From Catajapyx aquilonaris (lineage: Eukaryota): DNA of 64,000 nucleotides. The notes beneath the pieces were generated by a model. That model did no database searches. It had not been told where the DNA came from and saw only the letters and a program-made list of their open reading frames with translations. Made by a program: the position numbers and the translations under genes. Positions 4,202 to 56,471 of this stretch are shown piece after piece (the stretch's first letter is position 1; every line of letters starts with the position of its first letter). The DNA lies in the NCBI GenBank assembly GCA_000934665.2, contig KZ538029.1, positions 62,001-126,000 on the forward strand, written 5' to 3'.

Positions 4202-4274
4202 GCTCCTGTGGCCTAATGGATAAGGCGTTGGCCTCCGGAGCCAAAGACTGTGGGTTCGAGTCCCACCAGGGGCG
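4202..4274 (+). tRNA. tRNA-Arg(CCG)
   Basis: Acceptor stem GCTCCTG/CAGGGGC, D-arm TGGCCTAATGGATAAGGC, anticodon arm TTGGC-CTCCGGA-GCCAA, T-loop GGTTCGAGTCC, followed by TTTT. Confidence 0.95.
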
Positions 4275-6857: not shown

Positions 6858-6918
6858 TCACACGGCCACGGTGTCATATGGAGTCAGACCATTCGGCATG
6901 TGGTGCATGCCCTCGTTC
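6858..6918 (-). CDS. Dscam1: Dscam last coding exon, ends in PDZ-binding-type motif
   Basis: [20 protein letters not shown]. Confidence 0.9.
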
Positions 6919-9900
6919 CTGGAAAGACAAGGAGGGGGGCTCATCCCCTGGCTACACAGCGGGAAAGAGAGCACACGGTTAGTTGTGACGACACTCTTCA
7001 AGGCCCTGATTCCTAGCAAGTGCACTTGGGTTTTACTCTCACTGGTGGTGATGAGAGACGCTCATAAAGTACGCCACACTACAGGAGAAATGGTGAGGAT
7101 GCGACTGGAACATGTCACGGCACAGGGTAGATCTTAGTGCCTTAGTGCGTGATATTTTACCAGTAATTTATATGGAGGTTCTTGGTGTGACGTATTTTAC
7201 GGACAAACCTTACAACACCAACATAAGAGTTTAATTGGTTAGCAGGCCCACACAAAACTTATTAGTGGTCCAGTGTCACTCAAAAAGGATTAGGTTTCAA
7301 GGCATTAAGTGCCACTGTACTATTACGAGGAGTTATTTTGATGCTCATGTTTGGTCATGTTGGTCAAAACGAATAATCCTGCATTGCAAGAGAAGAATGA
7401 TTTCACAAGGTTAATGGCTAATCAAAGAAGTAATATTAATTCAACACACTTTAGTGATAAGCATAATAGTCAATGAACATCATGCAGTATAGGAAATTAG
7501 AAGAGAATTACACGATGCAAATCGGTTTCAAAACCAAGTCATTTCATATGAGCAATCTACAACTGCCTACTAATATTATCATGCAGTTTTACTTTATTTT
7601 TCCAAAATTAAGGTGCAATGATGAATTTCAAGATCCTGATAATTATTTTGTTCTCTACTTGTAAGTAAACTATGGCCTTACAAGTTAGCAGAAGTGGGAC
7701 TTAATGCACACAGAAAAGGAATAAGCTTCAATGTACACATCTTTGGTACCTTCCTTCAACACTAAACCCACCTTCCACCACCAAAAAATATTGTGCATTG
7801 ATGAATATCAAAATATTAAAACTAATCCTCCTTTCAGTATTTTATATTCATCAGGCACAACGTACACTCCCTCACTCTTAAAAAAATTGCTCATGCTGTA
7901 AGTCACGTCAAACCCATCCTTTTCCAACTTACGGTTTCCTAGTGATGGGAAGCATTTAGAAAAAAAGGAGAGGAGTTAGTCCATCAATATAGAAGCCGAA
8001 TCGAGAAAGTAAAGAGTTCAGTATCCTACACCAATATCTGAATACTCGTTTCAAGAAGGTGACCTGAGAATAACACACACCTTTCAATCAGTTTCCTCAT
8101 CTCCTCAGTGCTCATCGGGTTGTCTTTGCTTGCTGGACGTGGGTTGTTGCCTGAAACGTGAGGCTCTGTTCAATGTAATTCATGACACGAGGCAAGTGGA
8201 GATGCAACGCTAGTCACCTGAGTAACCACGTCCCAGCAGCTGGTCCCGATCGCACTCGGCCTCGGAAGCTTCGTTGCTCTCTTTGGAGTCATTGAATGAC
8301 CCGTTGGCATTGGGAGCTGGTCCAGCATCATGGTTGCGGGGTGGTGGGGGTGGAGGGGAAGGGGAGGCTGGAGCCAGGGGGATGGGGACAGAGCGCAGGG
8401 AGCCTACAAGTTAGAAGAGTGCGTGAGTGTTACAGGCCAACTTACATGGTGCTCCCTGGTACTGAGCATAAAAAGTGTGAATAAATGTGATACCAAGACT
8501 GCGACGTCCGATCGAGCCACGACTGCCATAGACCTCATCATACTGGCGGCTGTACCCAGCGCGGTAATGCTCTTCCTCAGCATCACAGTTGGCCGGATCA
8601 TCATACTCGGGGGTGAAGCTCACACCGCCCTGACTAGGAACTCGGCTGTAGCGTCCATTGCCACCGTTAGGGCGAGGCTGCAAAACGCAGAAACAGTTAG
8701 TGGTCATCCTTGTGTGATCGATCCACAAACAATACCATAGACTGGGAGCCGCTACGGCTGTGAGCATGGCCTCCGTGGCCGTTCTGGTGGGGAAAGGTCT
8801 GAAAGTTGACGGCTTTTGAGGGGTCCATCTCTTCACGGAAGCCCAACAAGTGGAAGGTTGCGTATGGGCAGATCTCATCCTCAAGGCCACCTATTCGAAA
8901 AAAATGGTGCTGCGAGTTAACATATCTGCTCTTTGAGTTGGTCAGTGGAACCTCAGCTGATTGTTAGGGCAACAGCGTTAGCTCACACTGTTATGCTCTG
9001 GCGTAGCATTCATTTGAGTGCTCATTATTTTGGGCACAATTGATTAATTAGGTCTTTTGTTTTATATTAAAAGGCCAGGGTGTGGAAGGCAATTGAAAAC
9101 AGTATTATTTTGTGTGAATTATTTCCCTGATAGACATCTGATATGTGTTGGAACACAATAGGTATTGATTTCCAGCGATGAAGAAGGCAAATTGAAGGTT
9201 GGCATTGAATATTAACAATGCAGCACCCTCTTGCGACTGTGAATTTCATGCAGAGGGATTCATCATTTATTAATCGAGACTTAATAAGGATCAATAAAAC
9301 AAGTGAGAATGTGTTAAAATTATTATACTCTGTCAATAAATACGTCAGAAGATTAACTCCAGTATTATGTGAATCAGATTCATATGACAGCAGTTGAAAG
9401 TCTATCACTGGCTATTTATTAATTTCATGTTGTTCACTAAATGACACTCGTCAAGAAATCTGCGGATTATCCAAAATTTTGTCAGATAAGTGACAATTAT
9501 ATTTTCCATTCAGCTCCTCAATCATAGCGTTTAAAGCAACATAAACATTTGGCCAGCTTTCACACGAGCTAAACTAATCCTGCAATTTTTGCATTCAGTC
9601 ATTAAATAATAATCCCAGTTATACACAGTGAGAGCAACGTTGATGACCTTAACTCGTTCCTGTCCGTGTTCCTTCTTCCCATTCTTCAGAAAAATCCTAG
9701 ACATTTAAAGCCACAAGATGCACATCCCACGAGGAAGAAAAGTTCTCACAAAAAGCGGCACATCAAGATATTCCAACAAACAAGCCAAACCAATCACGTA
9801 CACCTCACTTACACCTGACGATGCCGCACTCACCATATATTCTAGGATCTTCCTCGCCTGGGCCTGGAGGCATCCTTCTGCCAGTGGGTGGGTGAAGGGA

Positions 9901-45900: not shown

Positions 45901-48900
45901 TTGTGTAATAAGGTGTGCAATGATCCCCCCCAAAGACTTTTTACCTGAAAGATGGGACCGGGTAACCCTGCGCGGGACAAGTAAGTGTGAACCCATTGTT
46001 GGAAGGCACTTTCGAGGAGTGGATTCTGTCTTCCGAGGGTAACTTTGGTGATGCGCTGCCCATTGGTTCTATCGAGGGTTTTGGTAATTTTTGGAGGACA
46101 ATTTTGAGCATTACCTGAATGCTGGGACTGGGAACCCCTGCGCGGGACACATGAGGGAAAAACCGCTGCCTGATCGGCGACGGAAGACGTTTCCCAGAGA
46201 GTCCGATTGAAATTTTGGAGACGAGCTGCCTATGGGTTCTATGGGAGTTTGGGTTGGATATGGATGGGGAAAGGACAACTCATCAACAACTATAGATAAA
46301 TTATTTTACGAGCGCAACCTAGTGCGCACCCACACTCGCGCAGTTCTGACAACAACGTTGCCACAGCTACTTCTCAGGAACCTCTAAAAGGTTCGTTCCA
46401 GTTGGCAACGTCGCAAAAGTCGGCCATATTGTTACCCCCTGCTCGAACTGTGTTGCGCAGTCGGTTGCGCTCATGAAAATATACCCATAGAAAATTGCAG
46501 GCAGTAAGTTTTCGACCTCAGTTCGGTTACAATATAATTCCATTTTTCTGTATGATTGTGACATAATAAAGCACAAAGTTTGTCTGTATGTCCGGGCTAC
46601 CTAACCCACTTTCGGACTACTGAGAGTACTGATTGCGGGAAAAGTCCGAAAACCGCACTTTCTTGAGCTCTAATACGACCCAAAAGGATTTGATCTAGTT
46701 GCACATAAATGACATCGACGTAATTATCCGCGCAATTTATCTCCCAAAAATTTCGAGACGTTATAGAGAGGCTACCTGAAAGACGGCACAGGGTATCCTT
46801 GTGCAGGACAGAGTATTGTGACGCCTACTCCTGCTTGGTATTGAAACGCGTTGGTTCCTCTATTCGAGCTAGGAAGCTTAGGCGCGGCGCTACCCATGGG
46901 TTCTGTGCAAAAGTTTTGAGGGTTCACCGGCGACCAGATTTAAGTGTGGGTACAGGGTGGCACAACACACCTGAAGGCAGGGACAGGAAACCCCTGCGCT
47001 GGACAGACCAGAGCGAATCCGGACTTGATCTCTTTGACGAAAAGGTTGGCTCGAGACTCCACGGGAATGCGAGGTGCCGCGCTGCCCATGGGCTCTTGAG
47101 GTGGGATGGAGGAGGAAGGGTCAAAGGTCAAAATTTCGAAAAAATTCCGGTATGTTGTGGCTAATAACGAGTCCACTTACCTGTATACTGCTGTCCTGGT
47201 CATTAATCGACTTGGATAGGAAGAGAAGGAAAGGGTCTAAACTTTCAGAATCCCAACCTCCCTGCCCTGGGCCAACTCCCTCTCCTCTTTAAAAAAAATT
47301 GCAAAAATATTTGCACGGTTTTCGACCATTTTATCCCCCCCTCTAAAAATTTTGTGAAATTGGTGCCAATGGTCTTCCTCGGAGCGGAACGGCAGGGGTA
47401 CCCTATCCCGACATCCAGGCAACTTCCAGTTTTGGAGACGATGGTCCGAGGTTTGAAGTCGGGTCGTCGTCTCCAATACTCGACACACACTTAAGTCTAA
47501 AAAGAATTTCCCCCATGCTAATTTCTTACAACGTGAGCGAACTTGGGTCATGCCAATTTAATGAAAACGCTCATTTAATTTTTTTAAATTTACAAACTTC
47601 GGAATAATGTGACCAAATTTGCTTCAGGTGTTTGCGATTCATGTTCAAGTAAGACTTGGCAGTACATTTTGACTTGCAATAGAGTAGCTTGTGTTTCATA
47701 CACTGCTCATTTTGGAATCAACAGGAGGAAAATTTTGGAGCAATATGTTTCATTTTCGTAGATATTTTTACATTAAGTGCATGCAATTTTAGGAGTACAT
47801 TTAGTCACATTATTCGTGTAGTGATTTAAAAATTTACGCACTGGCCAATGCAAATCCCCAGTTACATCTTTAGTGCTGGTTGGCCAATTTTGTTTTTGGC
47901 AAAACAATGGTGATAAACTCACCGGTGATGACTAGTCGTCCAGCAGTTGCACTTAGACGAGTTTCTCCAGTTAAACGATGCTTGGTCTGGCAGCGGTATG
48001 ACTTGTATCCGTCCTCTGGTCCAACATCACGGATGTGCAATTCTCCGGAAGGTAGCACAAGATATTTTCCATCTGTGTTGCACGAAGATGGGAGGGGTGG
48101 AAAGAATTGAACAGTACATTAGATAAAAGTTGTGAATATTATTTTTTTGTTCTAAAATATTTCTGAATCGCAAGATGGGACAGTGATAATTTCACTTTTT
48201 AAGAGTCGCATGTGTACTTGAATTCAAGTTGAATGTTTGAAGCATCACAGTCCAGATCCATAGATTCTATCAATGATTGCATGCTAATAGGTCATTCTTG
48301 ATAAGGACTTTTGCACGTGACTCTTTGTGTGCAGAGCAGAATTAGTTTAGAACAAAACCCCTCTTGGCACTGTTTACACCAAGGCTATTCAAGTCCTTAT
48401 CAAAAATCAGGAAACCAAAACGTACAGACACGCAAGAGATGCTTCTACAAACTACTCTGTAACAAACCAAAAAAAAATGCAAAGTTAATATCCCAGCAGG
48501 ATGAGGGAGAAAACAATGCCAGCTAATATGGAAAACGCATGCAATGTCGCGTCTGTACGTCCACACCGACACAATAATAATACTCGCAACGGCCGAAGGA
48601 AGAAATAACGCAGGGTTTGGGTATGACTTGCCAATGATTTTTTTTCGGACACTTTAAATAGTTTAAAACGAACCCTTCAAATACAGGAAAATCTTCCCTC
48701 AGCCTTAGCCTCCAGGAAGATGTGTGCTTTTGGGCTGTGAAAAATCTCGAATCTTCAGTACAATCGGTTAATCCCATAAGATGACTTCTTAGTAACCTGA
48801 TCGCCTAATCTTCATGGAAGCTTTTTTTTCCACAGTGTTTGAAAAGCGTGGTTAGAAAGGGAGATGTGCCAAAATTTAAGACGGTTCACATCTTCCTTTC

Positions 48901-51900
48901 AAATGCACGTGGGGGGCTACAAAAATGTAGATCACGGTTGTCTGGATTCAAGGGGGGGGCTGAAAATCAGAAAGAAAATATGTACCGTAATCATCAGAGG
49001 GGCGTATCTGTGTGGTGTCTCCGTCCATCCAGAGGGCCACCTGAACGTAGTCAGCCACGAAGGAAGGGATGTGGCAACGGAGCAAAGCGGCGTTGCCGCG
49101 CAGAACAAACTCATCCATGAGATTCACCTCGTAGTGTTGCGGTACCACTACGGCATAAGGAATACGAAATGATAACCCCAAAAGAAATCAGATGCATGCC
49201 TTTTTTTTAAAAAAAAAAATCTCCTGGGTCACAAATTTTTGGAAGTTGCCAGATCTGTTCCTCCGGTTATAGCCACTGTTGCCAAATCAGACTCATTTTT
49301 TTTCAGTGAACGTATCGCGAAATTGTTGCCACACTTCCCACTAGCAGAGAAAATAGGCAAATTCTGTTAATTTTTTGGGAGGGAAGGTCAAAGTTTTTTT
49401 TTCCAGTCAACTGACCATTCGGGTAGATCGACCCGAGGTCATAGCGCCTTCCGTCCGAGTCTTGCCAGGCCAAAATCTTGACGTAATCGGACACGTAGGG
49501 CGGTAGATGACATTGGAACAAAGCGCTGTTCCCACGAATGACATAACCGTCGTAAACCTGAGCTTCGAAGAATTGGTTCACAGCTGAAACATACCGGGTT
49601 TCAGGATTTTATTATATTCAGGGTTGGAAGTGCAAGTGTCGGGGACTTATAAAATATTGGAAACTGCACATCTGGAAAAGAAAAAACATTAGTGCTGCAA
49701 ATTAATCGTTTTTTTCTCTCATTGTCAGTTAAGTGTCTCCGTATCTGACTCTTCAAATTACCGTAGTCTCCTCCATGGACCCAAAAGTCACTCCCATCCT
49801 CAGCTTCCCATCCAATTACTTGGACGAACTCGGAGACGAAGGCAGGCACCTGACACTTCAACGTTGCAGGGTTTCCCCTCAAGACGAACTCATCGCTGAC
49901 TCGAGTCTGATATGCCTGTGCCACAACTAACCCCAAAACAAAACAATTTTTTCAAAATCAAATTTTTTTAAAACTTTTGTACAGTGCTCCGTTGCCACAT
50001 CGTATACCTTTCTTTTTTTAAAACACTAGTGCGCACATATTGTTAATATTATCAGGATTTACCAAAGTCGTCTCCATAGGCATATTTGGACCCGGTGTCA
50101 TCGTTCCATCCGATCACACTGACAAAATCGGATGCGAAGCTAGGGATCATGCACTTCAGAGTGGCCGAGTTGCCACGAAGGACTATCTCGTCTATGACTC
50201 TGGTCAGGTAAAATTGGCTGACCACTGCGGAAAGGAAATAAAGCGGGGGGGTCAACGGTGGAACAAAGGGGGGGCTTCAGCAAACCATGCGGGGGCGTCC
50301 TGCAAAAAAGTATCCCAATAAGATTAATCCACACCATAGTCGTACCATAGTCGTCGCCAGTGGTGAAACGTTCTCCTTCGTTGTCGTTCCACCAAACCAC
50401 TTGGACATAGTCGGCGACGAAACTGGGAATTTCGCATTTCAGAAGAGCGCTGTTTCCGCGTATGACGTACTCGTTGTCTGCTTCGGTTATGTAGAATTGG
50501 GAAACGACTACAAGTAACGAGAAAATGTCAGTTCACGCCTTCGGAAGAACCGCTGCTGAAACTAAAGACGTGTTAACATGGGGACGTTGGACCTGCCTAT
50601 AACTATAGCAATTTTTTACCATAGTCGGTGTTTTGATCTGAAGGGTAGTAATGATTTCCATCGCCATCCAACCAGGAGACGACCTGAATGTAATCCGCAA
50701 CGAAACTTGGAATTTCGCACTTGATGATGGCGCTGTTTCCACGGATCGCGTACTCTTTGTCAGCGTCCGTTTCGTAGAACTGCGAAACCACTGCAAATAA
50801 TTCGCAACGAATTTTATACGTTTGAAAGCAGCAGCTCAGGCAACCTAGAACATAAAACAGATTCTGCTAATTAGTTTCCGGGTTTTCCTGCAAATATGGG
50901 TAGCCTACAGGGGTTGTGTTCAGTACCGTAGTTGTCGGACTGCCTGTAGTTGGAGCCATCATCGCACATCCAGGCCTCCACGTAGACAAATTCGGCAACA
51001 AAGGAAGGGATGGAGCATTTCAAGATGGCAGCGTTGCCTCTGATGACGTATTCGGCCAAAATCTCGGCATTGTAGAATTGGTTCACCACTGTAATCCCAA
51101 CAGCGGACAAGGTTTGAGCTATTACAGTACGACACCCCAACCCCTACCACCACACTCTGATTAGGAAAAAAAAGCCGTAAGTGTGAACTTACGGCTTTTT
51201 TGCGAATTGGCCGTGTTCTAGTTGCGTTATTATTGGTCGGTGCGGGGCTCCGGACATATTTTAAATCATTAAAAATCCGTACCGAATTGATTTGAATGTT
51301 CGTATGTGGCATCGCTGTCTGATTTCCACGCAACGACTCGGACAAAGTCGACGACGAACGACGGTATGTTACACTTGAGTACGGCTGTGTTGCCTCGGAT
51401 CACGTACTCGGACACCACCTCCGCCTCGTAGTACTGACTCACCACTGAAAGAATTCGTCTGATTTCGGACACAACATTCGGGACACAAGATCTGGCAACC
51501 TCAAAACACACCCCCCGATACATTGCCACATCCCATCCTGTACGTGAACATGTGCTGGAACAATACAAAAGATATTGTCTCGTGTGTGATTTGTCGGTTT
51601 TTTGGCCTTTACCAGGATCTAAATCGCGGGTAGGGAAAATGGTGTGGCCTGTGTCGTCCTTCCAAGCCACGACGTTCACGTGATCTGCCACGAAGCTGGG
51701 TATGTGGCAACGTAGCAGTGCAGCGTTGCCACGAATCACGTGCTCGTTGTACACCTCCACTTGGAAGTACTGGCTAATCACTGTAAGTACCGCTCAATAT
51801 TGCTTTTGCACATTGTCATGTGTGGGATTTAACACAATAGATGTGCGTTTTTATAGTCGGCAAGACTTAGCCTCATTTCTATTATTTTATTTATTTATTT

Positions 51901-54900
51901 CATTTAATAAATACATATCGTGGGCAAACATAATTCGGGTCCAATTATGGCGATTTTGAGTGAATACCACTAATCAGCATGTTATCTGCTCTGTCACTTG
52001 GTGAAGTACATTTAGCCATAAGGATTCATAGTGAGCCAGCAACCAGGATTTTTTTAATGAGCACAACCGAGTGCGCAACACAGTTCGCCCAAATTGTTTC
52101 CAACACTACAATTGAGGGAGAAACAATATGGCCGACTTTTGCGACGTTGCCAAGCCTCTGGAACTAACCTTAGAGGCTACCGGTGTGAATTTGGCCCCCT
52201 GAGGAGTAATTGTGGCAACGTTGTTGTTGGAACAATGGACTTGCGCGAGTGTGTGTGCGCACTCGGTTGCGCTCGTTAAAAAAACATATATACGCATAGC
52301 ATGCGAGCATGCCGACGATATTGTTTTTATATTAAATATCCATCTGAATCTTGTGGGTATTTCTTTCACCGAAATACCCATAAGGAGGCATGTTGGTGTA
52401 ACTGAAGCTAACCGAGCCGACTATAACACCGCAATGTTACGTTCCTGTAACACGTTTTCAATGACAAAATATCAACGCGATTAAAACGCACACAATGCAT
52501 ATAGGGCTAAGGTCAAACTGCAAGAGAAACGTTGACTGATGGCAGACATCGAGGTCTGTAATCGAAACAAACGGAATTTTTGAGCATTGTCTCGCTGTCG
52601 GGGTTGCCCTTTTTTTGTGTGTGTGTGCCCGTACCATAGTCATCTGAGGGCATAAAGTTGTCGTTCTGATCCGTGGTCCAGGCAATCACACGCAGAAAAT
52701 CCCCGACGAACGAGGGCACCTGGCATTTCATGAGGGCGCTGTTACCCCTGATGGCGTACTCCTTAATCACGTCCACTTCGTAGAACTGCGCCACCACTGA
52801 AAACTATCGGGTTTGCCAGACTTTTTTTTTCCTGACATGATGGGGGATAATGTGATTTGGGACGAAAGGGTTTCCTTGTCCCAACCCACTACACGTGTTT
52901 CTCCAATCGGGACATGTGCCCCACTGCAAAAGATGGTTTTTGGTCAGCGCTGGGGGTTTCTTCCACAAACTTTACCATAGTCGTTGGTGGGTGTCAAGTA
53001 TTCGTCGCCTCGACGCCACGCGGTGACAGTGACGTAATCGGCCACGTACGACGGCACGTGGCACTTGAGCACGGCCGCGTTTCCACGTATCACGTATTCC
53101 TCGAAGAAACTGGCCGAGTAGGGTTGGGACACAACTGCAATATTTCCCTCAGAGTCACAGACCTGCCCATGGCCAGTTGCATCAACGCAGAGTTCACACA
53201 ACCGGCTCCAAATCAACAGAACAAACATGGCCGCCATGACAGTTTAGGGCAAACAGTGAGTAACGGCGCTGCTGTTTCCGTTCTATTGATTGTTGTTTGT
53301 GAACAGGTCTGGTCACAGAGGGTCACAGTCTCGTGTGAACAGGCCCCCAAATCCACTAATCTGAGGTGGTGGGTTGGAGGTGTCGAGAGTCCAGTGTATT
53401 TAGTCACAGAGGGCAATGGTGCCATATTGATCGTGAACCGAGCTCCGGATTTTGAGATGGAGGCGTCGGCATGGTCAGGAATTTCATGAGGAACAGTTTT
53501 ATAATAAAAAATACCTATAGGACATCGATCGAGCTATTACTCCCAGTGAAGTGTGAGGACCTCGAGGTCCCTTTTCTCTGCCCAGAACCACGTCTCTAAT
53601 CTACTCACTGCCAAAACACTGGACCTCTTTTTCACCGTCTTCCTGGACTGAAACAAAGGTCTTTAGAGACGACCCATAGTGTGCGTATATGTATCCAGCT
53701 CTCAGCAGAAAGAAATATATGTCTAACGTTCAGGATTCGCAGGTCGTTTTCTGCTGACTTGAACTCCTGGCGCCTGCTGATTGCTTCTGAGGATATTTGG
53801 CCCAATTGGGCGCAGTGCGGATGGGTGCACATCTCAACTGCGGTATAGGCCATTGAACGTTAACTGCCCCGTTCAGACAGCGGAATAGACCATCGATGCA
53901 TAAGATCTCATATGCACGTACAGTACAGTCAAAATTAAGATAAACGCAACAGCACGACTCTACAATGAAATGATGGTTGCATAGCCACAGGATACATCCA
54001 GATTACATGCTATTGTGACAGCAGGAAATGATATTAATGAGACCTGCACTAATCATAAAAATGTAGGAACTACCTGGCTGATGTTTGCAATGATTACAGT
54101 GGGTTTGTGACAGGAACTGCTGTGGGAATGCAGCAGGGCTTGACATTATAATTGGATGAAATGCCCTACATTCTTCACTAAATGTCATGCATTCACTGCA
54201 CGGTATACCCAAAAATCGTCGTACTTAACTGTAGATGATTCTGACATACAGCACAACCTTTATTAAATTTGTCGATGCCATTAAAACCAGTGTGTGGGTC
54301 TGTCTTACAGTAGCATCTCTTAATATTCATTACTGCTGAACAGTGCATAATGCCCGAAGAAAAATTATGCATGAAGCGCTTTCAGAGATCCGGGGTCGTA
54401 AGACTTTCACCTCTACCACTATGAGTATTATTCAGCCACGTCTTATGGGCTCCTAAAATCTTAGCATAAGTAACCGCAGTTGAGACAGCATCATACTCAA
54501 CTATGACTCTTTCTGCTGAGAGAGAGATATATGATATCACGCACATCACATTTTTGTTTGCTGTAGATTCCTGGAATTTATGGATAAGCAGAACTAACAT
54601 GTAAGTAAACTTATGGGATAATCTTCTCACATGACTTAGCGTGTGATACACAACTGGAATTTTACACACTATACTTTCCATACGTTGCGCTTGGGATGTA
54701 AAAATCCTTTTATAGGTCCAAGTTACTGCCCAAGTTACTATACGAGTGGGTACCTTCAACACTCTATTTTTGTCCCACTCGTCCCATAACCTTTGCTCAG
54801 GAGCTTGCGCACAAAAATTACCAGATAATTTTCATGGGGGGGGGGGGGGAGAATTATAGCACAGTGACCCACATAACAGGAAGTAAGAGCTATGATTAAC

Positions 54901-56471
54901 ACAAGGATATAGCCAGATAAATTCGCGCCTCAATTGTTGCGAATCATGTTAAGGAATCTGAGGCACGAAATGAGCCTAATCAATAGGGCTGACCTCGCCG
55001 ACTCCGCAGTCATACATTATAAACGAGGTTATATATGGATCACCCAGATTGCACCAAAAGTAAAAGCCGAAGCGTGAACAGTTTCTTTTCCAAATGAGTA
55101 AAGATTCCAATCAGTCATTTTGCAAATTGTCTGCAAATAGATTGATGTTTTCACTACTGTTTGATATGCCATATCTGCAGGTCACATTTGTTGTGACATT
55201 TTGCCGATATTCATGGGCTTATGTCATCATTTCCGCGTGTTTTATGAGGCGTATTTCAGCAGTACAATGCAGCTCAAAACTTAGATATTAACGAAAATGA
55301 AATGTCAGCATTCCAGTTTCCCTCATATGGGAAAGGCAAACGACGCCTAAAATATTAACAAACGTGGGTGTAAAGGACACGCGAATGACCCATATACTAT
55401 AAATAGGAACAGTATAAATACTGGTCATTAACAAATGAAACTTTCTTCATTTCCATATTCTTATTGCCCTTATTATTTTTGTATTCCGACACTTTGTATG
55501 AGACGGGTTAATGGCTAGTTGTTGAACACAAATTAAGAAGTAAATCTACGATAATGTGGGCTTATGTATTATACATTTATTTACGGTTTTATTATTTGCA
55601 TTTACATTTATTAAATCGCCAACAAGGCAGTTTACACAAAATATTCAAACAGAAGCAGAAAAAAAATTAGCCAAACTGTGAAAGACACGTTTTATTGCCG
55701 GATATATCAGTTTGGCTCTTTTTCTACAGATGCAAATGTGACTGCCCCTCCTTCCTACAGCAGGTCCGTTGTATATAGTTTCGTGTGCAACCGGTATGCC
55801 TACTGAATTCCTCTGGGTGGCATGTGTTCAGCGTAGCTCAGGCAGATACCTCAGGCATGCGTGACCGGAACAATTTCACCGGTTATGGGCTGTAGACTCA
55901 GCAGTAATGTACTATTGTGCAGTGATTATTCATCCAATCTCGAACCAGGCATATACTGCCACCCGGAAGGGTCATGCTTACACTTTTGTTTATGCCCAAA
56001 CTGGCTATATCCTTGGTAGGCTATATAAACTCGTTACACTGATGAGACATGAAGTTTGAGTGAATACTGACCAGCTCGGACGTGGACATCGCGGGAGTGG
56101 ATAGTTCCGACCGAATTCCGTGCCATACAAACGTAGACCTGGGCGTGAACCTCTTGTCGGTAGTCGTCGGCCCGGAAGGGCGGGAATACCAGGTTGCCGT
56201 TGGGAAGAACCTTTGTTTTTGGAAATGGGGGAACTTGCGCATATCCGGTCTCTCTGGACTTGTCGTCTGGATATAGGTAAGGGACTTACCTGACGCAATC
56301 CGGGGACATCTCCGACAGCTGTTCCATCAGCTCGAACCCAGAATATCTCTGCTGTTGGGGTGGCTCGAGCGGCGCATTCTACGACGGCTCCTGTGGTGTT
56401 GCTGAAGTCTACTTGAGGAGGTGGTTCCTTCACAAACATAGGTCCGCTGGTTTCTTCTTCCGCCAAAGCTG
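6858..56471 (-). CDS. Dscam1: Hypervariable Dscam (10 Ig, 6 FNIII, TM, cytoplasmic tail) with mutually exclusive exon clusters; signal-peptide exon not located
   Basis: Diagnostic Dscam peptides throughout ([84 protein letters not shown]); phase-compatible splice sites. Confidence 0.98.
7933..7938 (-). CDS. Dscam1: Candidate 6-nt cytoplasmic microexon (adds KP)
   Basis: pyrimidine tract..cactag|GAAACC|gtaagt, frame-preserving. Confidence 0.5.
8081..8150 (-). CDS. Dscam1: Dscam cytoplasmic exon
   Basis: [24 protein letters not shown]. Confidence 0.9.
8218..8403 (-). CDS. Dscam1: Dscam cytoplasmic exon (polyproline)
   Basis: [30 protein letters not shown]. Confidence 0.92.
8494..8677 (-). 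CDS. Dscam1: Dscam cytoplasmic exon
   Basis: [34 protein letters not shown]. Confidence 0.9.
8736..8890 (-). CDS. Dscam1: Dscam cytoplasmic exon
   Basis: [32 protein letters not shown]. Confidence 0.93.
9834..9968 (-). CDS. Dscam1: Dscam cytoplasmic exon (second in-frame acceptor at 9959)
   Basis: [22 protein letters not shown]. Confidence 0.85.
10677..10829 (-). CDS. Dscam1: Dscam juxtamembrane cytoplasmic exon
   Basis: [34 protein letters not shown]. Confidence 0.95.
11320..11538 (-). CDS. Dscam1: Dscam alternative transmembrane exon TM2 (17.2-like)
   Basis: [47 protein letters not shown]. Confidence 0.93.
11582..11749 (-). CDS. Dscam1: Dscam alternative transmembrane exon TM1 (17.1-like)
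   Basis: [45 protein letters not shown]. Confidence 0.92.
12715..12881 (-). CDS. Dscam1: Dscam FNIII-6 C-terminal exon
   Basis: [21 protein letters not shown]. Confidence 0.93.
12942..13118 (-). CDS. Dscam1: Dscam FNIII-5/6 exon
   Basis: [29 protein letters not shown]. Confidence 0.93.
13179..13410 (-). CDS. Dscam1: Dscam FNIII-5 exon
   Basis: [33 protein letters not shown]. Confidence 0.93.
13474..13743 (-). CDS. Dscam1: Dscam Ig10 exon
   Basis: [30 protein letters not shown]. Confidence 0.95.
13973..14272 (-). CDS. Dscam1: Dscam FNIII-4 exon
   Basis: [28 protein letters not shown]. Confidence 0.95.
14357..14512 (-). CDS. Dscam1: Dscam FNIII-3 C-terminal exon
   Basis: [33 protein letters not shown]. 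Confidence 0.95.
14592..14833 (-). CDS. Dscam1: Dscam FNIII-2/3 exon
   Basis: [32 protein letters not shown]. Confidence 0.95.
15302..15521 (-). CDS. Dscam1: Dscam FNIII-2 exon
   Basis: [28 protein letters not shown]. Confidence 0.95.
15603..15902 (-). CDS. Dscam1: Dscam FNIII-1 exon
   Basis: [25 protein letters not shown]. Confidence 0.95.
15969..16117 (-). CDS. Dscam1: Dscam Ig9 C-terminal exon
   Basis: [33 protein letters not shown]. Confidence 0.95.
16190..16337 (-). CDS. Dscam1: Dscam Ig9 N-terminal exon
   Basis: [35 protein letters not shown]. Confidence 0.95.
16499..16792 (-). CDS. Dscam1: Dscam exon 10 (Ig8)
   Basis: [33 protein letters not shown]. Confidence 0.96.
17330..17366 (-). 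promoter_or_regulatory. Candidate downstream docking site of the exon-9 cluster
   Basis: RNA AAGGUCCAGGAGGGGUUUGGAGAAACUUGUCC is complementary to motifs downstream of many exon-9 variants. Confidence 0.75.
17634..17921 (-). CDS. Dscam1: Dscam exon 9.28 (Ig7 variant)
   Basis: [15 protein letters not shown]. Confidence 0.9.
18062..18420 (+). mobile_element. Helitron/DINE-like element (copy 2) with three internal ttcgcaac(t/c)tc repeats
   Basis: Starts a^tctctaaatatataaa; contains gaaacttggcacac; homologous to 1403 and 46568; 3' end approximate. Confidence 0.55.
18536..18811 (-). CDS. Dscam1: Dscam exon 9.27 (276 nt)
   Basis: [28 protein letters not shown]. Confidence 0.9.
18950..19237 (-). 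CDS. Dscam1: Dscam exon 9.26
   Basis: [16 protein letters not shown]. Confidence 0.9.
19848..20135 (-). CDS. Dscam1: Dscam exon 9.25
   Basis: [15 protein letters not shown]. Confidence 0.9.
20215..20502 (-). CDS. Dscam1: Dscam exon 9.24
   Basis: [16 protein letters not shown]. Confidence 0.9.
20796..21110 (-). CDS. Dscam1: Dscam exon 9.23 (315 nt)
   Basis: [16 protein letters not shown]. Confidence 0.9.
21283..21570 (-). CDS. Dscam1: Dscam exon 9.22
   Basis: [16 protein letters not shown]. Confidence 0.9.
21678..21968 (-). CDS. Dscam1: Dscam exon 9.21
   Basis: [16 protein letters not shown]. Confidence 0.9.
22080..22367 (-). CDS. Dscam1: Dscam exon 9.20
   Basis: [16 protein letters not shown]. 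Confidence 0.9.
22479..22766 (-). CDS. Dscam1: Dscam exon 9.19
   Basis: [16 protein letters not shown]. Confidence 0.9.
22915..23168. mobile_element. Foldback MITE-like element
   Basis: Long imperfect inverted repeat agtgctggatattaat..gtcatactgc / gcagtatgac..attaatgtccaacact. Confidence 0.75.
23401..23688 (-). CDS. Dscam1: Dscam exon 9.18
   Basis: [16 protein letters not shown]. Confidence 0.9.
23980..24267 (-). CDS. Dscam1: Dscam exon 9.17
   Basis: [16 protein letters not shown]. Confidence 0.9.
24395..24682 (-). CDS. Dscam1: Dscam exon 9.16
   Basis: [16 protein letters not shown]. Confidence 0.9.
26563..26850 (-). CDS. Dscam1: Dscam exon 9.15
   Basis: [16 protein letters not shown]. 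Confidence 0.9.
27340..27627 (-). CDS. Dscam1: Dscam exon 9.14
   Basis: [20 protein letters not shown]. Confidence 0.9.
27731..28018 (-). CDS. Dscam1: Dscam exon 9.13
   Basis: [15 protein letters not shown]. Confidence 0.9.
28067..28354 (-). CDS. Dscam1: Dscam exon 9.12
   Basis: [15 protein letters not shown]. Confidence 0.9.
28526..28813 (-). CDS. Dscam1: Dscam exon 9.11
   Basis: [21 protein letters not shown]. Confidence 0.9.
28914..29201 (-). CDS. Dscam1: Dscam exon 9.10
   Basis: [21 protein letters not shown]. Confidence 0.9.
29311..29598 (-). CDS. Dscam1: Dscam exon 9.9
   Basis: [21 protein letters not shown]. Confidence 0.9.
29735..30022 (-). CDS. Dscam1: Dscam exon 9.8
   Basis: [21 protein letters not shown]. 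Confidence 0.9.
30143..30430 (-). CDS. Dscam1: Dscam exon 9.7
   Basis: [21 protein letters not shown]. Confidence 0.9.
30538..30825 (-). CDS. Dscam1: Dscam exon 9.6
   Basis: [21 protein letters not shown]. Confidence 0.9.
31029..31316 (-). CDS. Dscam1: Dscam exon 9.5
   Basis: [21 protein letters not shown]. Confidence 0.9.
31398..31685 (-). CDS. Dscam1: Dscam exon 9.4
   Basis: [21 protein letters not shown]. Confidence 0.9.
31816..32103 (-). CDS. Dscam1: Dscam exon 9.3
   Basis: [21 protein letters not shown]. Confidence 0.9.
32171..32339. mobile_element. Foldback MITE-like element
   Basis: Inverted repeat atgctgcgcagctagatttggaaata / tatttccaagtctagctgcgcagcat. Confidence 0.75.
32441..32728 (-). 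CDS. Dscam1: Dscam exon 9.2
   Basis: [21 protein letters not shown]. Confidence 0.9.
32830..33117 (-). CDS. Dscam1: Dscam exon 9.1
   Basis: [21 protein letters not shown]. Confidence 0.9.
33321..33630. mobile_element. MITE-like element with 16-bp terminal inverted repeats
   Basis: tagagcactcaatcta / tagattgagtgctcta; no clear target-site duplication. Confidence 0.55.
34118..34279 (-). CDS. Dscam1: Dscam Ig6 C-terminal exon
   Basis: [32 protein letters not shown]. Confidence 0.95.
34370..34632 (-). CDS. Dscam1: Dscam Ig5/Ig6 exon
   Basis: [36 protein letters not shown]. Confidence 0.93.
34769..34913 (-). CDS. Dscam1: Dscam Ig5 N-terminal exon (probable GC donor)
   Basis: [30 protein letters not shown]|gcaagt. 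Confidence 0.9.
35011..35265 (-). CDS. Dscam1: Dscam Ig4 exon
   Basis: [43 protein letters not shown]. Confidence 0.95.
35328..35509 (-). CDS. Dscam1: Dscam exon 7 (constant half of Ig3)
   Basis: [36 protein letters not shown]. Confidence 0.96.
35623..35743 (-). CDS. Dscam1: Dscam exon 6.29
   Basis: [20 protein letters not shown]. Confidence 0.9.
36255..36375 (-). CDS. Dscam1: Dscam exon 6.28
   Basis: [20 protein letters not shown]. Confidence 0.88.
37433..37511 (-). pseudogene. Degenerate exon-6-like pseudo-exon with in-frame TAG
   Basis: ctttccag|[25 protein letters not shown]|gtaagt; same phases (1 to 2) as exon 6. Confidence 0.65.
38153..38273 (-). CDS. Dscam1: Dscam exon 6.27
   Basis: [20 protein letters not shown]. 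Confidence 0.88.
38425..38545 (-). CDS. Dscam1: Dscam exon 6.26
   Basis: [20 protein letters not shown]. Confidence 0.9.
38749..38869 (-). CDS. Dscam1: Dscam exon 6.25
   Basis: [20 protein letters not shown]. Confidence 0.9.
39029..39149 (-). CDS. Dscam1: Dscam exon 6.24
   Basis: [20 protein letters not shown]. Confidence 0.9.
39220..39349 (-). CDS. Dscam1: Dscam exon 6.23
   Basis: [20 protein letters not shown]. Confidence 0.9.
39424..39535. mobile_element. Palindromic MITE-like element
   Basis: ggtggaatttttgtccca / tgggacgaaaattccacc. Confidence 0.7.
39565..39674. mobile_element. Short MITE-like element with CAGT termini
   Basis: cagtgtgttcc.attg / caataggaacacactg. Confidence 0.6.
39929..40058 (-). 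CDS. Dscam1: Dscam exon 6.22
   Basis: [20 protein letters not shown]. Confidence 0.9.
40216..40345 (-). CDS. Dscam1: Dscam exon 6.21
   Basis: [20 protein letters not shown]. Confidence 0.9.
40580..40706 (-). CDS. Dscam1: Dscam exon 6.20
   Basis: [20 protein letters not shown]. Confidence 0.88.
40815..41009. mobile_element. Foldback MITE (about 195-bp palindrome, CAGT termini)
   Basis: cagtcatttccaggagtaaggtagcagac / gtctgctaccttactcctggaagtgactg. Confidence 0.85.
41021..41147 (-). CDS. Dscam1: Dscam exon 6.19
   Basis: [20 protein letters not shown]. Confidence 0.88.
41290..41416 (-). CDS. Dscam1: Dscam exon 6.18
   Basis: [20 protein letters not shown]. Confidence 0.9.
41461..41590 (-). 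CDS. Dscam1: Dscam exon 6.17
   Basis: [20 protein letters not shown]. Confidence 0.9.
41630..41756 (-). CDS. Dscam1: Dscam exon 6.16
   Basis: [20 protein letters not shown]. Confidence 0.9.
41805..41931 (-). CDS. Dscam1: Dscam exon 6.15
   Basis: [20 protein letters not shown]. Confidence 0.9.
41993..42090. repeat. Long inverted repeat/hairpin (MITE remnant?)
   Basis: cgaccgacaaaaatgggttccccta / taggggaacccatttttgtcggtcg. Confidence 0.75.
42290..42416 (-). CDS. Dscam1: Dscam exon 6.14
   Basis: [24 protein letters not shown]. Confidence 0.9.
42516..42642 (-). CDS. Dscam1: Dscam exon 6.13
   Basis: [24 protein letters not shown]. Confidence 0.9.
42754..42880 (-). CDS. Dscam1: Dscam exon 6.12
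   Basis: [24 protein letters not shown]. Confidence 0.9.
42927..43050 (-). CDS. Dscam1: Dscam exon 6.11
   Basis: [20 protein letters not shown]. Confidence 0.9.
43113..43233 (-). CDS. Dscam1: Dscam exon 6.10
   Basis: [20 protein letters not shown]. Confidence 0.9.
43348..43471 (-). CDS. Dscam1: Dscam exon 6.9
   Basis: [20 protein letters not shown]. Confidence 0.9.
43520..43643 (-). CDS. Dscam1: Dscam exon 6.8
   Basis: [20 protein letters not shown]. Confidence 0.9.
44334..44457 (-). CDS. Dscam1: Dscam exon 6.7
   Basis: [20 protein letters not shown]. Confidence 0.9.
44619..44742 (-). CDS. Dscam1: Dscam exon 6.6
   Basis: [20 protein letters not shown]. Confidence 0.9.
44850..44973 (-). 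CDS. Dscam1: Dscam exon 6.5
   Basis: [20 protein letters not shown]. Confidence 0.9.
45294..45435. mobile_element. Tc1/mariner-like MITE remnant
   Basis: cagggtgact..aaag / tttagtcaccctg-ta termini. Confidence 0.55.
45945..46068 (-). CDS. Dscam1: Dscam exon 6.4
   Basis: [20 protein letters not shown]. Confidence 0.9.
46115..46238 (-). CDS. Dscam1: Dscam exon 6.3
   Basis: [20 protein letters not shown]. Confidence 0.9.
46304..46479. mobile_element. MITE, inverted relative to the copy at 52049-52283
   Basis: Terminal repeats gagcgcaacc.agtgcgca / tgcgcagtcggttgcgctc; internal ttggcaacgtcgcaaaagtcggccatattgtt. Confidence 0.8.
46568..46670 (+). mobile_element. Helitron/DINE-like repeat (copy 3)
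   Basis: aaagtttg..tatgtccgggctacctaacccactt..gaaaagtccgaaaacc. Confidence 0.6.
46776..46902 (-). CDS. Dscam1: Dscam exon 6.2
   Basis: [20 protein letters not shown]. Confidence 0.9.
46971..47094 (-). CDS. Dscam1: Dscam exon 6.1
   Basis: [20 protein letters not shown]. Confidence 0.9.
47362..47433 (-). promoter_or_regulatory. Exon-6 docking site
   Basis: RNA AAACUGGAAGUUGCCUGGAUGUCGGGAUAGGGUACCCCUGCCGUUCCGCUCCGAGGAAGACC in the exon 5-6.1 intron; core resembles the Drosophila exon-6 docking site as recalled (UGCCUGAAUGUUGGGAUAGGGUAC); complementary motifs lie upstream of many exon-6 variants. Confidence 0.9.
47923..48072 (-). CDS. Dscam1: Dscam exon 5 (constant half of Ig2)
   Basis: [50 protein letters not shown]. 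Confidence 0.97.
48986..49147 (-). CDS. Dscam1: Dscam exon 4.11
   Basis: [27 protein letters not shown]. Confidence 0.92.
49056..49090 (-). promoter_or_regulatory. Candidate exonic docking site for the exon-4 cluster (inside 4.11)
   Basis: Complementary to intronic motifs at 49985-50001 (17/17), 51521-51539 and 49245-49265. Confidence 0.6.
49416..49583 (-). CDS. Dscam1: Dscam exon 4.10
   Basis: [24 protein letters not shown]. Confidence 0.9.
49762..49926 (-). CDS. Dscam1: Dscam exon 4.9
   Basis: [22 protein letters not shown]. Confidence 0.92.
50063..50224 (-). CDS. Dscam1: Dscam exon 4.8
   Basis: [22 protein letters not shown]. Confidence 0.92.
50346..50507 (-). CDS. Dscam1: Dscam exon 4.7
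   Basis: [22 protein letters not shown]. Confidence 0.92.
50620..50790 (-). CDS. Dscam1: Dscam exon 4.6
   Basis: [22 protein letters not shown]. Confidence 0.92.
50927..51088 (-). CDS. Dscam1: Dscam exon 4.5
   Basis: [22 protein letters not shown]. Confidence 0.92.
51283..51444 (-). CDS. Dscam1: Dscam exon 4.4
   Basis: [22 protein letters not shown]. Confidence 0.92.
51613..51780 (-). CDS. Dscam1: Dscam exon 4.3
   Basis: [22 protein letters not shown]. Confidence 0.92.
52049..52283. mobile_element. MITE, same family as 46304-46479, opposite orientation
   Basis: aacaatatggccgacttttgcgacgttgccaa; terminal repeats gagc.caaccgagtgcgca / tgcgcactcggttgcgctc. Confidence 0.8.
52635..52796 (-). 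CDS. Dscam1: Dscam exon 4.2
   Basis: [22 protein letters not shown]. Confidence 0.92.
52976..53134 (-). CDS. Dscam1: Dscam exon 4.1
   Basis: [22 protein letters not shown]. Confidence 0.92.
56072..56210 (-). CDS. Dscam1: Dscam exon 3 (Ig1 C-terminal half)
   Basis: [46 protein letters not shown]. Confidence 0.96.
56290..56471 (-). CDS. Dscam1: Dscam exon 2 (Ig1 N-terminal half; CAGCAG tandem acceptor)
   Basis: [41 protein letters not shown]. Confidence 0.95.

What the first reader, a model, noticed from the sequence alone, without database searches (positions are those of the whole stretch)
49056..51546. Exon-4 docking site appears to lie inside the coding sequence of the last variant (4.11)
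Seen: the exon 4.11 RNA segment UGCUCCGUUGCCACAUCCCUUCCUUCGUG (codons [10 protein letters not shown]) is complementary to intron elements downstream of 4.8 (49985-50001, 17/17 perfect), 4.3 (51521-51539, 17 WC + 1 GU of 19) and 4.10 (49245-49265, 17 WC + 1 GU of 21; also 49325-49333). Weaker gttgcc-type cores follow 4.1 and 4.2. I found no comparable complement in the intron before exon 5. Known: the insect exon-4 docking sites I know of are intronic. Inference: a dual-coding exon in which pairing loops out the intervening variants and silences 4.11 itself, so 4.11 is used when nothing docks. Caveat: gttgcca also occurs in local MITEs, and clear selectors were not found for every variant.
Basis: partly seen in the sequence, partly recalled or inferred. 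Interest (0 to 1): 0.85.

Follow-up and report, generated by a model that had tools for sequence, protein, structure and literature searches.

The report
Dscam exon-4 pairing site inside a coding exon
In this arthropod Dscam1 gene, short intron sequences after two of the alternative exon-4 copies are near-perfect complements of a coding stretch in the last copy, which looks like the known RNA-pairing switch for choosing one exon but with its hub moved into an exon; this rests on one genome and is untested.

Summary
The window holds Dscam1 on the minus strand with 11 exon-4 variants.

**Observation.** The complementarities to exon 4.11 (49084-49061) are real.
- The intron after 4.8 pairs 17/17.
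- The intron after 4.3 pairs with 17 WC + 1 GU of 19.
- After a MITE hairpin, these are the two strongest long-range complementarities in the 8.1-kb exon 3-to-5 pre-mRNA.
- Their convergence on one site was reached by 0 of 300 intron shuffles.
- They are single-copy, not transposon sequence.

- The third "selector" (after 4.10) is at chance level against 4.11.
- It pairs instead with a second element in the intron after 4.3. This gives a two-helix clamp around the 4.11 3' splice site.
- Seven of ten upstream variants show no selector.
- The last intron holds no rival partner.

**Limits.** No close relative or RNA data could be obtained. In distant insects the orthologous codons differ.

**Verdict.** This is probably a docking-selector switch serving 4.3 and 4.8, with an exonic docking site: a new variant of a known kind, on in-silico evidence from one genome.

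The parts
48986..53134 (-). Dscam1 exon-4 cluster of 11 mutually exclusive variants. Coordinates (high-low): 4.1 53134-52976; 4.2 52796-52635; 4.3 51780-51613; 4.4 51444-51283; 4.5 51088-50927; 4.6 50790-50620; 4.7 50507-50346; 4.8 50224-50063; 4.9 49926-49762; 4.10 49583-49416; 4.11 49147-48986.
   Evidence: AG/GT boundaries and in-frame translations. Alignment A1. Dscam1 identity from protein search.
49055..49092 (-). Candidate exonic docking site inside exon 4.11 (codons [11 protein letters not shown]). The core paired by both selectors is 49079-49068.
   Evidence: It is the top hub of the 8.1-kb region, reached by 0 of 300 shuffles. Pair probability is 0.98-0.99 in ensemble folds.
49980..50014 (-). 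Selector in the intron after exon 4.8. 50001-49985 pairs 17/17 with 49084-49068. A short extension (50007-50014) pairs with 49067-49060 across a 5-nt bulge.
   Evidence: -33.8 kcal/mol. (-39.4, z -7.6). MFE of the 1.28-kb stretch. p 0.98. Net interaction z -3.4, 0 of 60 shuffles.
51521..51539 (-). Selector in the intron after exon 4.3 (helix A, 5' arm). It pairs with 49079-49061.
   Evidence: -31.8. (-41.8 with extension, z -5.3). MFE of the 2.84-kb and 5.2-kb stretches. p 0.99.
51488..51506 (-). Second element in the intron after 4.3 (helix B, 5' arm). It carries the same GTTGCCA core as the exon site and pairs with 49256-49238.
   Evidence: score 38, -25.4 kcal/mol. (15-bp helix in the MFE). 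p 0.95. Intron x intron net interaction z -3.0, 0 of 60 shuffles.
49238..49265 (-). Element in the intron upstream of 4.11 (helix B, 3' arm). Its best partner is 51506-51488, not exon 4.11.
49148..49237 (-). Branch-point, polypyrimidine and 3' splice-site region of exon 4.11. In the predicted structure it lies in the asymmetric internal loop between helices A and B.
   Evidence: Coordinates. The functional consequence is inferred.
51695..51732 (-). Paralogous segment of exon 4.3 with the same amino acids ([16 protein letters not shown]). It is a weaker partner of both selectors, and is predicted to be held in an intra-exon hairpin between the R-G-N codons and the R-C-H codons.
   Evidence: scores 38 and 35... 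Hairpin p 0.99. Codon table.
52050..52284 (.). High-copy MITE in intron 4.2-4.3. It is not part of the pairing system but carries both core motifs.
   Evidence: Depth 4000-9000 against about 30. Terminal hairpin 52285-52256 x 52077-52048. Core motifs at 52213-52219 and 52146-52152.

Best explanation
This is a docking-selector type competing RNA structure of the Dscam1 exon-4 cluster, with the shared docking sequence inside the coding sequence of the last variant (4.11) rather than in the last intron.

**Pairing by the intron after 4.3.** It carries a two-part element.
- One part (51539-51521) pairs with exon 4.11 (49079-49061).
- The adjacent part (51506-51488) pairs with the intron just upstream of 4.11 (49256-49238).

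**Pairing by the intron after 4.8.** It carries one element (50001-49985) that pairs with exon 4.11 at 49084-49068.

**Proposed consequences.**
- The two selectors share 12 nt of the exon site, so only one can pair at a time.
- Pairing loops out the intervening variants. It makes part of exon 4.11 double-stranded. For 4.3 it also boxes the 4.11 3' splice site between two helices.
- The 5' splice site of 4.3 or 4.8 would then be joined to exon 5 instead of 4.11.
- When nothing is paired, 4.11, the variant nearest exon 5, is available.

**Shown versus inferred.**
- Shown: the complementarities, their rank, their statistical excess, their single-copy status and their predicted thermodynamic dominance.
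- Inferred: that they form in vivo, and every effect on splicing.
- The other seven upstream variants must be chosen by other means.
For: **The pairings exist and rank high.**
- Pairings verified.
- They rank 2 and 3 of 289 complementary segments in the 8.1-kb pre-mRNA.
- The exon 4.11 segment scores 44, 44 and 32 against the introns after 4.3, 4.8 and 4.10. The ten paralogous exon segments score at most 38, and other introns 13-25.
- Hub statistic: 0 of 300 shuffles reach it.
- RNAduplex z is -5.3 and -7.6.
- The 17-mer is unique in 64 kb.

**Net interaction energies after paying for local structure.**
- Intron 4.3-4.4 against [intron 4.10-4.11 plus the first 100 nt of 4.11]: -30.0 kcal/mol, z -5.6, 0 of 60 shuffles.
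- Intron 4.8-4.9 against exon 4.11: -20.8 kcal/mol, z -3.4, 0 of 60 shuffles.

**Folds of the surrounding pre-mRNA.**
- Unconstrained MFE folds of 1.28, 2.84 and 5.2 kb contain these helices.
- Ensemble probabilities are 0.95-0.99.

**Rival sources excluded.**
- No rival partner in the last intron.
- Elements are at single-copy depth.
- Similarity does not extend beyond 17-20 nt in either orientation, so this is not a long inverted duplication or a relic exon.

**Fit to published work.**
- The geometry matches the published exon-4 model, with selectors downstream of variants and docking at the distal end (passages of PMC4691838, and PMC8042237).
- In Drosophila the docking element lies in intron 4.12, 'just next to exon 4.12' (passage of PMC6379703).
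Against: - Only 2 of 10 upstream variants have a significant partner. The third is at chance level against the exon.
- A canonical hub looks different in this same gene. The exon-6 docking candidate near 47418 has 14 partner sites at the same threshold, against at most 7 anywhere in the exon-4 region.
- With my lenient scoring, a single exon-intron match of score 41 or more arose in 13 of 200 shuffles.
- Intron 4.3-4.4 against exon 4.11 alone gives only z -1.9, with 3 of 60 shuffles as good.
- The core is a near-palindrome produced by conserved codons: G-N gives GGCAAC and R-C gives CGTTGCC. It is enriched in the cluster, with 11 of 30 window copies in 3.2 kb. Shuffle nulls therefore understate chance complementarity.
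- Codons in the site are all common ones. The identity of the CGT-TGC-CAC codons between 4.3 and 4.11 has a chance of about 0.09 by my arithmetic on the counts. There is no within-genome sign of synonymous constraint.
- There is no conservation evidence. In the distant insect loci L003, L004, L006 and L012 the orthologous last variant has different codons (IIKC instead of LLRC) and no GTTGCCA. L003 has no upstream partner scoring 24 or more, and the best in L004, L006 and L008 score 25, 32 and 27.
- The docking-selector model for exon 4 is itself contested (PMC6379703 passages).
Confidence: 0.5

Rival explanations
1. The complementarity is non-functional. The conserved codons R-G-N (GGCAAC) and R-C-H (CGTTGCCAC) make a near-palindromic core. 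Tandem duplication of exon-plus-intron units scattered copies of it through the cluster. Two copies happen to match exon 4.11 well.
For: - The core motif is enriched in the cluster and partly codon-derived.
- Exons 4.3 and 4.11 each fold the two codon blocks into an internal hairpin.
- The selector after 4.8 also resembles, in sense orientation, the R-G-N-A-A-L codons of 4.3. Its score of 25 equals the null maximum.
- Single pairs of this score are not rare in shuffles, at 13 of 200.
- Seven variants have no selector.
- There is no conservation in distant insects.
Against: - A 17/17 and an 18/19 match fall on the same 24 nt in different registers. Both extend beyond the 8-nt palindromic core, and 0 of 300 shuffles reach this convergence.
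- A sense relic of the 4.3-type codons would differ from the selector at 5 of 17 positions by direct comparison of the sequences. Perfect complementarity to 4.11 would still need directed change.
- A second, nested helix lies beside the 4.3 selector.
- The placement downstream of variants is as in the known system.
Confidence: 0.28
2. The pairings are functional but do not select 4.3 or 4.8. They act as a silencer or clamp of exon 4.11, or as a 'balancer'-type long-range structure that shortens the effective distance across the cluster and tunes usage of several variants. Exon 4.3's paralogous segment would act as a second, upstream site.
For: - The two helices from the intron after 4.3 box in the 4.11 3' splice region, and further weak nested helices reach the 3' splice site of 4.4.
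- Both selectors also pair with exon 4.3, at scores 38 and 35.
Against: - Exon 4.3's segment is predicted to be locked in its own hairpin, p 0.99.
- The 9-bp nested helices are of a length expected by chance in windows of that size (my estimate, not a call).
- Nothing in the sequence distinguishes this role from selection of 4.3 and 4.8.
Confidence: 0.17
3. The intron elements are transposon (MITE) fragments, or an intronic small-RNA precursor aimed at exon 4.11.
For: - A high-copy MITE in intron 4.2-4.3 carries both core motifs.
- The 17-nt perfect antisense match resembles a small-RNA target site.
Against: - The dock and selectors sit at single-copy depth of about 30, against 4000-9000 for the MITE.
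- The intron after 4.8 folds no better than shuffles, z 0.04.
- No Rfam family matches in 47900-56300 apart from one chance-level hit at E 0.78.
Confidence: 0.03

Closest known systems
Dscam1 exon-4 downstream docking site with selector sequences: Drosophila (Yang et al. 2011, cited in passages only), Coleoptera (PMC8042237), Hymenoptera downstream arm (PMC4691838)
   Same: - A cluster of mutually exclusive exon-4 variants.
- Selector elements in the introns downstream of individual variants.
- A shared partner at the distal end of the cluster, beside the last variant.
- Overlapping footprints, so pairings compete.
- Only a subset of variants has recognisable selectors in Drosophila.
- The primary sequence is clade-specific.
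   Different: - The shared partner lies inside the coding sequence of the last variant, 63-92 nt into exon 4.11. It is not in the intron before exon 5.
- Only two significant selectors are present.
- One selector comes with a second helix to the intron upstream of 4.11.
- There is no comparative or experimental support here.
Coleopteran Dscam1 exon-6 selectors that lie partly in the variable exons (PMC8042237, abstract and passages)
   Same: An element of the competing RNA structure overlaps coding sequence of a variable exon.
   Different: There it is the many selectors that overlap exons, attributed to short introns, and the docking site stays intronic. Here it is the shared docking sequence that is exonic.
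Duplication model for the origin of competing structures (Ivanov and Pervouchine 2018, PMC6071210, abstract and passages)
   Same: - Local stem-loops exist: selector plus dock-like element in the intron after 4.3, and intra-exon hairpins in 4.3 and 4.11.
- Their arms recur in duplicated units and could compete.
   Different: The model is framed for intronic stem-loops. Here one arm is coding.
Exon-6 docking site of the same gene (candidate near 47418)
   Same: It was found by the same hub scan and lies in the flanking intron, as published for exon 6.
   Different: It has 14 partner sites at the same threshold. The exon-4 site has few but much stronger partners.

Membership tests
Docking site / selector competing RNA structures of Dscam1 variable clusters | Tandem cluster of mutually exclusive, paralogous exons | tested here: met
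   11 variants with AG/GT boundaries, the same phase, and 38-53% identity to 4.11. Dscam1 identity.
Docking site / selector competing RNA structures of Dscam1 variable clusters | One sequence is complementary to elements in the introns next to two or more different variants, with overlapping footprints so that pairings exclude each other | tested here: met
   Elements after 4.3 and 4.8 pair with 49079-49061 and 49084-49068, a 12-nt overlap. 0 of 300 shuffles reach this convergence.
Docking site / selector competing RNA structures of Dscam1 variable clusters | A selector for most or all variants of the cluster | tested here: not met
   2 significant and 1 chance-level of 10 upstream variants. 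For Drosophila exon 4, only 'at least four' of 12 are claimed (10.1101/622217 passage).
Docking site / selector competing RNA structures of Dscam1 variable clusters | Docking site lies in the intron flanking the cluster (for exon 4, the intron before exon 5) | tested here: not met
   The site is in exon 4.11. The last intron has no partner scoring above 29 from cluster introns.
Docking site / selector competing RNA structures of Dscam1 variable clusters | Conservation or compensatory covariation of docking and selector sequences within a clade | not testable with these tools
   - No genome is held.
- Runs come only from one species.
- The 13 metagenome loci are distant, with exon 5 about 75% identical in DNA.
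- In the distant loci the orthologous codons differ.
Docking site / selector competing RNA structures of Dscam1 variable clusters | Disrupting and compensatory mutations change and restore variant choice | not testable with these tools
   This needs an experiment. No RNA holder was listed.
MITE / transposon-derived inverted repeat | Many genomic copies | tested here: not met
   Depth is about 30 at the dock and selectors, against 4000-9000 at 52050-52284.
Intronic miRNA / mirtron | Stable hairpin precursor | tested here: not met
   The intron after 4.8 has MFE -20.5 kcal/mol and z 0.04. No Rfam match.

The most novel reading that the evidence does not exclude
- The coding sequence for the conserved Ig2 cysteine strand of the default last exon-4 variant doubles as the docking site of the cluster.
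- A segment kept constant by protein constraint gives the intronic selectors a fixed target.
- The Lys-to-Arg change seen only in 4.3 and 4.11, which creates the GTTGCC core, would then be an amino-acid change driven by RNA pairing.
- If general, exonic docking sites would explain why searches restricted to conserved intron elements found no exon-4 docking site in some clades. Midges are one example (PMC7430681 passages).
- It would also bear on the dispute over whether exon 4 uses RNA pairing at all.
Probability: 0.35. Interest if true: 0.72.

Novelty: new variant of a known kind. Interest (0 to 1): 0.55.

Why it matters
**Why the question is open.** Whether Dscam exon-4 choice uses docking-selector pairing is disputed, partly because conserved intronic docking elements are weak or missing in several clades.

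**What this locus offers.** The pairings here are strong: a 17/17 duplex at -33.8 and an 18/19 duplex at -31.8 kcal/mol. These are stronger than the -16.9 and -26.9 kcal/mol quoted for two Drosophila exon-9 pairs in a passage of 10.1101/622217. They point into a coding exon.

**If real:**
- A variable exon can be both cargo and regulator.
- Comparative screens limited to introns miss such sites.
- The locus gives a compact test system. The 4.8-to-4.11 stretch is 1.3 kb, and synonymous recoding separates the RNA role from the protein role.

**If it is only a by-product of a codon-derived palindrome,** it is a caution against reading docking sites from one genome.

Tried and rejected
**Genome and earlier notes.**
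- Whole-genome search: no genome is held for this window.
- Earlier notes of this scan: nothing by place or by words.

**Sequencing runs.**
- No RNA holder was listed. There were 4 DNA runs of one sample and one small run of the same species label.
- Laying X1, X2 and X5 gave no RNA information. X5 covered only the MITE.

**Relatives.**
I used exon 5 instead.
- That gave 13 arthropod loci, all distant, so conservation could not be tested.
- Their last variants have no upstream partner scoring above 32, which is background level.
- The protein search with the exon 4.11 peptide gave 8 hits, with at most 65% identity.
- The search with an Ig7 exon confirmed Dscam1 but did not reveal the species among the 120 rows listed.

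**Rival origins.**
- A miRNA or Rfam reading was rejected.
- A relic-exon or long inverted-duplication origin was rejected: no similarity beyond 17-20 nt.
- A codon-usage test gave no signal, since all codons in the site are common.

**Method notes.**
- One RNAduplex run timed out. It was repeated with fewer shuffles and without the first intron, the last intron and the MITE-bearing intron (9 of 12 introns).
- All 12 introns were covered by the ungapped scan.

**Literature.** Literal searches for 'exonic docking', 'docking site in exon', 'docking site within exon', 'exonic selector' and 'docking sequence in exon' found 4 papers, of which 3 were listed. I did not open the matching passages. By their titles the 3 listed deal with the exon-6 and exon-9 clusters, and I take the phrase to be of the kind 'docking site in exon 6 cluster'. 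I found no description of an exonic docking site, but this is a phrase search of an open-access library only.
Full report
**What is there**

The window carries most of a Dscam1 gene on the minus strand. A protein search with one Ig-domain exon returns Dscam1 of many insects, at up to 84% identity. Between exon 3 (ends 56072) and exon 5 (starts 48072) lie 11 paralogous exon-4 variants. All have AG/GT boundaries and a common phase. Exon 4.11 is 49147-48986.

**Check of the observation**

All four pairings exist at the stated coordinates.

| Intron element | Pairs with exon 4.11 | Energy (kcal/mol) |
|---|---|---|
| 50001-49985 (after 4.8) | 17/17 Watson-Crick, with 49084-49068 | -33.8 |
| 51539-51521 (after 4.3) | 17 WC + 1 GU + one U.U mismatch of 19, with 49079-49061 | -31.8 |
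| 49265-49245 (after 4.10) | 17 WC + 1 GU + 3 mismatches of 21 | -24.6 |
| 49333-49325 (after 4.10) | 9-bp core | -14.6 |

I scanned the whole 8.1-kb exon 3-to-5 pre-mRNA for complementary segments, using 6-nt seeds and ungapped extension. This gave 289 segments. The 4.8 and 4.3 pairings rank second and third, behind only the terminal hairpin of a MITE in intron 4.2-4.3.

**Is it more than chance?**

- With my lenient score (GU +1, mismatch -4) single pairs are not very rare. An exon-intron pair of score 41 or more arose in 13 of 200 dinucleotide shuffles of the introns. Any long-range pair of 41 or more arose in 37 of 200.
- The convergence is rare. The sum of the best two (85) or three (109) partner introns on one position is highest in the whole region at 49079-49078. 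It is reached by 0 of 300 shuffles, with null top-2 of 61.6 +- 3.9 and a maximum of 81.
- The 17-mer occurs only at its two sites in 64 kb. Allowing up to 3 mismatches adds only the paralogous site in exon 4.3. That makes 3 matches against 0.14 expected, and 0 of 100 shuffles give 3.
- I compared the paralogous 35-nt segments of all 11 exons with all 12 introns. Exon 4.11 scores 44, 44 and 32 with the introns after 4.3, 4.8 and 4.10. Exon 4.3 scores 35, 38 and 24. Nothing else exceeds 31, and the remaining introns score 13-25 with 4.11, which is background.
- Gapped RNAduplex against 30 shuffles per intron gives z -5.3 (after 4.3), -7.6 (after 4.8) and -2.4 (after 4.10). For the introns after 4.1, 4.4, 4.5, 4.6, 4.7 and 4.9, z lies between -1.8 and +1.2. 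Three of the 12 introns were not run.

**The third selector is reassigned**

The element after 4.10 is not a credible partner of exon 4.11.
- The net interaction energy of intron 4.10-4.11 with exon 4.11 is -12.3 kcal/mol, z -0.7, with 17 of 60 shuffles as good.
- Its alignment score to antisense 4.11 is 22, against a null mean of 21.3.
- Its pair probability is 0.000.

Its best partner is a second element in the intron after 4.3. Segment 51506-51488 pairs with 49256-49238 at score 38 and -25.4 kcal/mol. Unconstrained MFE folds of 2.84 kb and 5.2 kb place this 15-bp helix (B) nested inside the selector-exon helix (A). Ensemble probabilities are 0.95 and 0.99.

On the 3' side, the roughly 160 nt between the two helices contain the branch-point, polypyrimidine and 3' splice-site region of exon 4.11.

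I estimated the chance of a second helix of score 38 or more within such a small neighbourhood. The basis is the null rate: 1.75 such segments per about 3.3e7 position pairs. Applied to about 8000 position pairs, this gives on the order of 4e-4. That is my arithmetic, not a call.

Taken together, intron 4.3-4.4 against [intron 4.10-4.11 plus the first 100 nt of 4.11] gives a net -30.0 kcal/mol, z -5.6, 0 of 60 shuffles. Against exon 4.11 alone it is weaker: -20.9, z -1.9, 3 of 60.

Two further nested 9-bp helices in the 5.2-kb fold, one covering the 3' splice site of 4.4, are of a length expected by chance.

**Competition between pairings**

- In the 1.28-kb stretch from 4.8 to 4.11, the 4.8 selector-exon helix is in the MFE with p 0.98.
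- Once the 4.3 intron is included, the 4.3 clamp takes the site and the 4.8 helix drops to p 0.000.
- The two are therefore predicted to be mutually exclusive, as their 12-nt overlap demands.
- Exon 4.3 carries the same amino acids ([16 protein letters not shown]) and the same 11-nt core. It is a weaker partner of both selectors, at scores 38 and 35.
- That segment of 4.3 is predicted to be held in an intra-exon hairpin between its R-G-N and R-C-H codons, p 0.99.

These are equilibrium predictions. Co-transcriptional folding could differ.

**Alternatives examined**

*A better shared partner elsewhere.* None was found. No segment of the last intron pairs with a cluster intron above score 29.

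*Transposon origin.* The MITE at 52050-52284 is high-copy, at depth 4000-9000. The dock and selectors sit at about 30, like the rest of the locus, and show no variants. Those contigs probably come from the sample that gave the assembly, so they confirm the sequence but are not independent.

*Relic exon or inverted duplication.* The best alignments of the two introns to any exon in either orientation are the 17-nt antisense matches to 4.11. These score 29 and 34, against null maxima of 28 and 25. Nothing extends further. A sense match of the 4.8 selector to the R-G-N-A-A-L codons of 4.3 scores 25, equal to the null maximum.

*Small RNA.* The intron after 4.8 folds no better than shuffles, z 0.04. 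Rfam gives nothing beyond one hit at E 0.78.

*Codon-derived palindrome.* This remains the main caveat. GGCAAC comes from G-N codons and CGTTGCC from R-C codons. GTTGCCA or its complement occurs 30 times in the window against 11.5 expected, and 11 of those lie in 49072-52219. Shuffles of the introns do not model such shared ancestry.

**Positive control**

The same hub scan was run on the exon-6 cluster of this gene. It picks out one site in the intron after exon 5, near 47418, with 14 partner sites at threshold 24 and 11 at threshold 27. This is as expected for the canonical exon-6 docking site. The exon-4 region has no position with more than 7 partners at threshold 24, or 4 at threshold 27. 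The exon-4 system here is therefore 'few but strong', not a many-selector hub.

**Conservation**

Conservation could not be tested.
- No genome is held, and no related windows are in the scan's notes.
- A scan of metagenome contigs with exon 5 found 13 arthropod loci. All are distant, with exon 5 at 74-81% DNA identity.
- Four of them (L003, L004, L006, L012) contain the orthologue of the last variant. It reads ...IIKCHIPSFV..., with different codons and no GTTGCCA.
- L003 has no upstream partner of the last variant scoring 24 or more. The best partners in L004, L006 and L008 score 25, 32 and 27, which is background.
- In L006 the strongest long-range pairs point into the last intron instead.

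This fits the published view that exon-4 docking sequences are clade-specific (PMC8042237 abstract and passages). It gives no support for function here.

Within the genome, all codons of the site are common ones. Lys-to-Arg at the position before the Cys is seen only in 4.3 and 4.11, and it is what creates the core. This is a hint, not a test.

**Comparison with what is known**

From passages read, not whole papers:
- Exon-4 docking sites are described as intronic and downstream of the last variant in Drosophila and Coleoptera, and on both sides of the cluster in Hymenoptera. Selectors lie downstream of the variants.
- In Drosophila the element lies in intron 4.12, 'just next to exon 4.12', and the model is disputed (PMC6379703).
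- Selectors were claimed for at least four of twelve Drosophila variants. Deleting the docking site raised 4.1 and 4.12 and lowered middle-to-back variants (10.1101/622217).
- Coleopteran exon-6 selectors partly overlap exons.
- I found no description of a docking site inside a coding exon, using the literal phrase searches in an open-access library only. Supplementary figures of these papers were not seen and may bear on this.

**Verdict**

The interpretation as an exonic docking site is the best-supported reading. I put it at about 0.5. It covers at most 2 of 10 upstream variants. It rests on one genome and on thermodynamic prediction. It is a new variant of a known kind.

Noticed in passing
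window 52050-52284: A high-copy MITE in intron 4.2-4.3, at contig depth 4000-9000 against about 30 for its flanks. It has a 30-nt terminal hairpin (52285-52256 x 52077-52048, -45.5 kcal/mol). It carries both GTTGCCA and TGGCAAC cores, so it adds possible decoy sites to the cluster.
   Followed up: partly
window about 47400-47435 (minus strand): A candidate exon-6 docking site in the intron after exon 5. It is the top hub of the 12.6-kb exon-6 region, with 14 partner sites at score 24 or more and 11 at 27 or more. It contains GGAAGTTGCC, which by eye is an 11-nt complement of part of 49256-49241 in the intron before exon 4.11.
   Followed up: partly
window 50147-50126 and 49817-49796: Exon-exon complementarity between coding parts of 4.8 and 4.9: 22 nt, score 38, -28.2 kcal/mol. 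It is partly present in the 5.2-kb MFE. At this score about 1.75 pairs per shuffle are expected.
   Followed up: no
window 49346-49402: A second haplotype-like contig with five substitutions and two indels in the intron after 4.10 (depth about 7.4-10.7 of 26.8-31 in X1 and X2). It lies just outside the TGGCAAC copies. No variant falls in the dock or the selectors.
   Followed up: no
window 49245-49331: Three copies of TGGCAAC within 90 nt of the intron after 4.10, at 49245, 49278 and 49325. Only the copy in 49256-49238 has a significant partner.
   Followed up: partly
L006 8280-8440: In this distant insect locus, the strongest long-range complementarities of the exon-4 region point into the last intron. 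An example is 5382-5405 x 8417-8440 at score 43. This is the published intronic arrangement.
   Followed up: no
L008 6360-6376, 6642-6658, 6944-6960: Three exon-4 variants of this locus share a 17-nt palindrome within the coding sequence, and so are mutually complementary.
   Followed up: no
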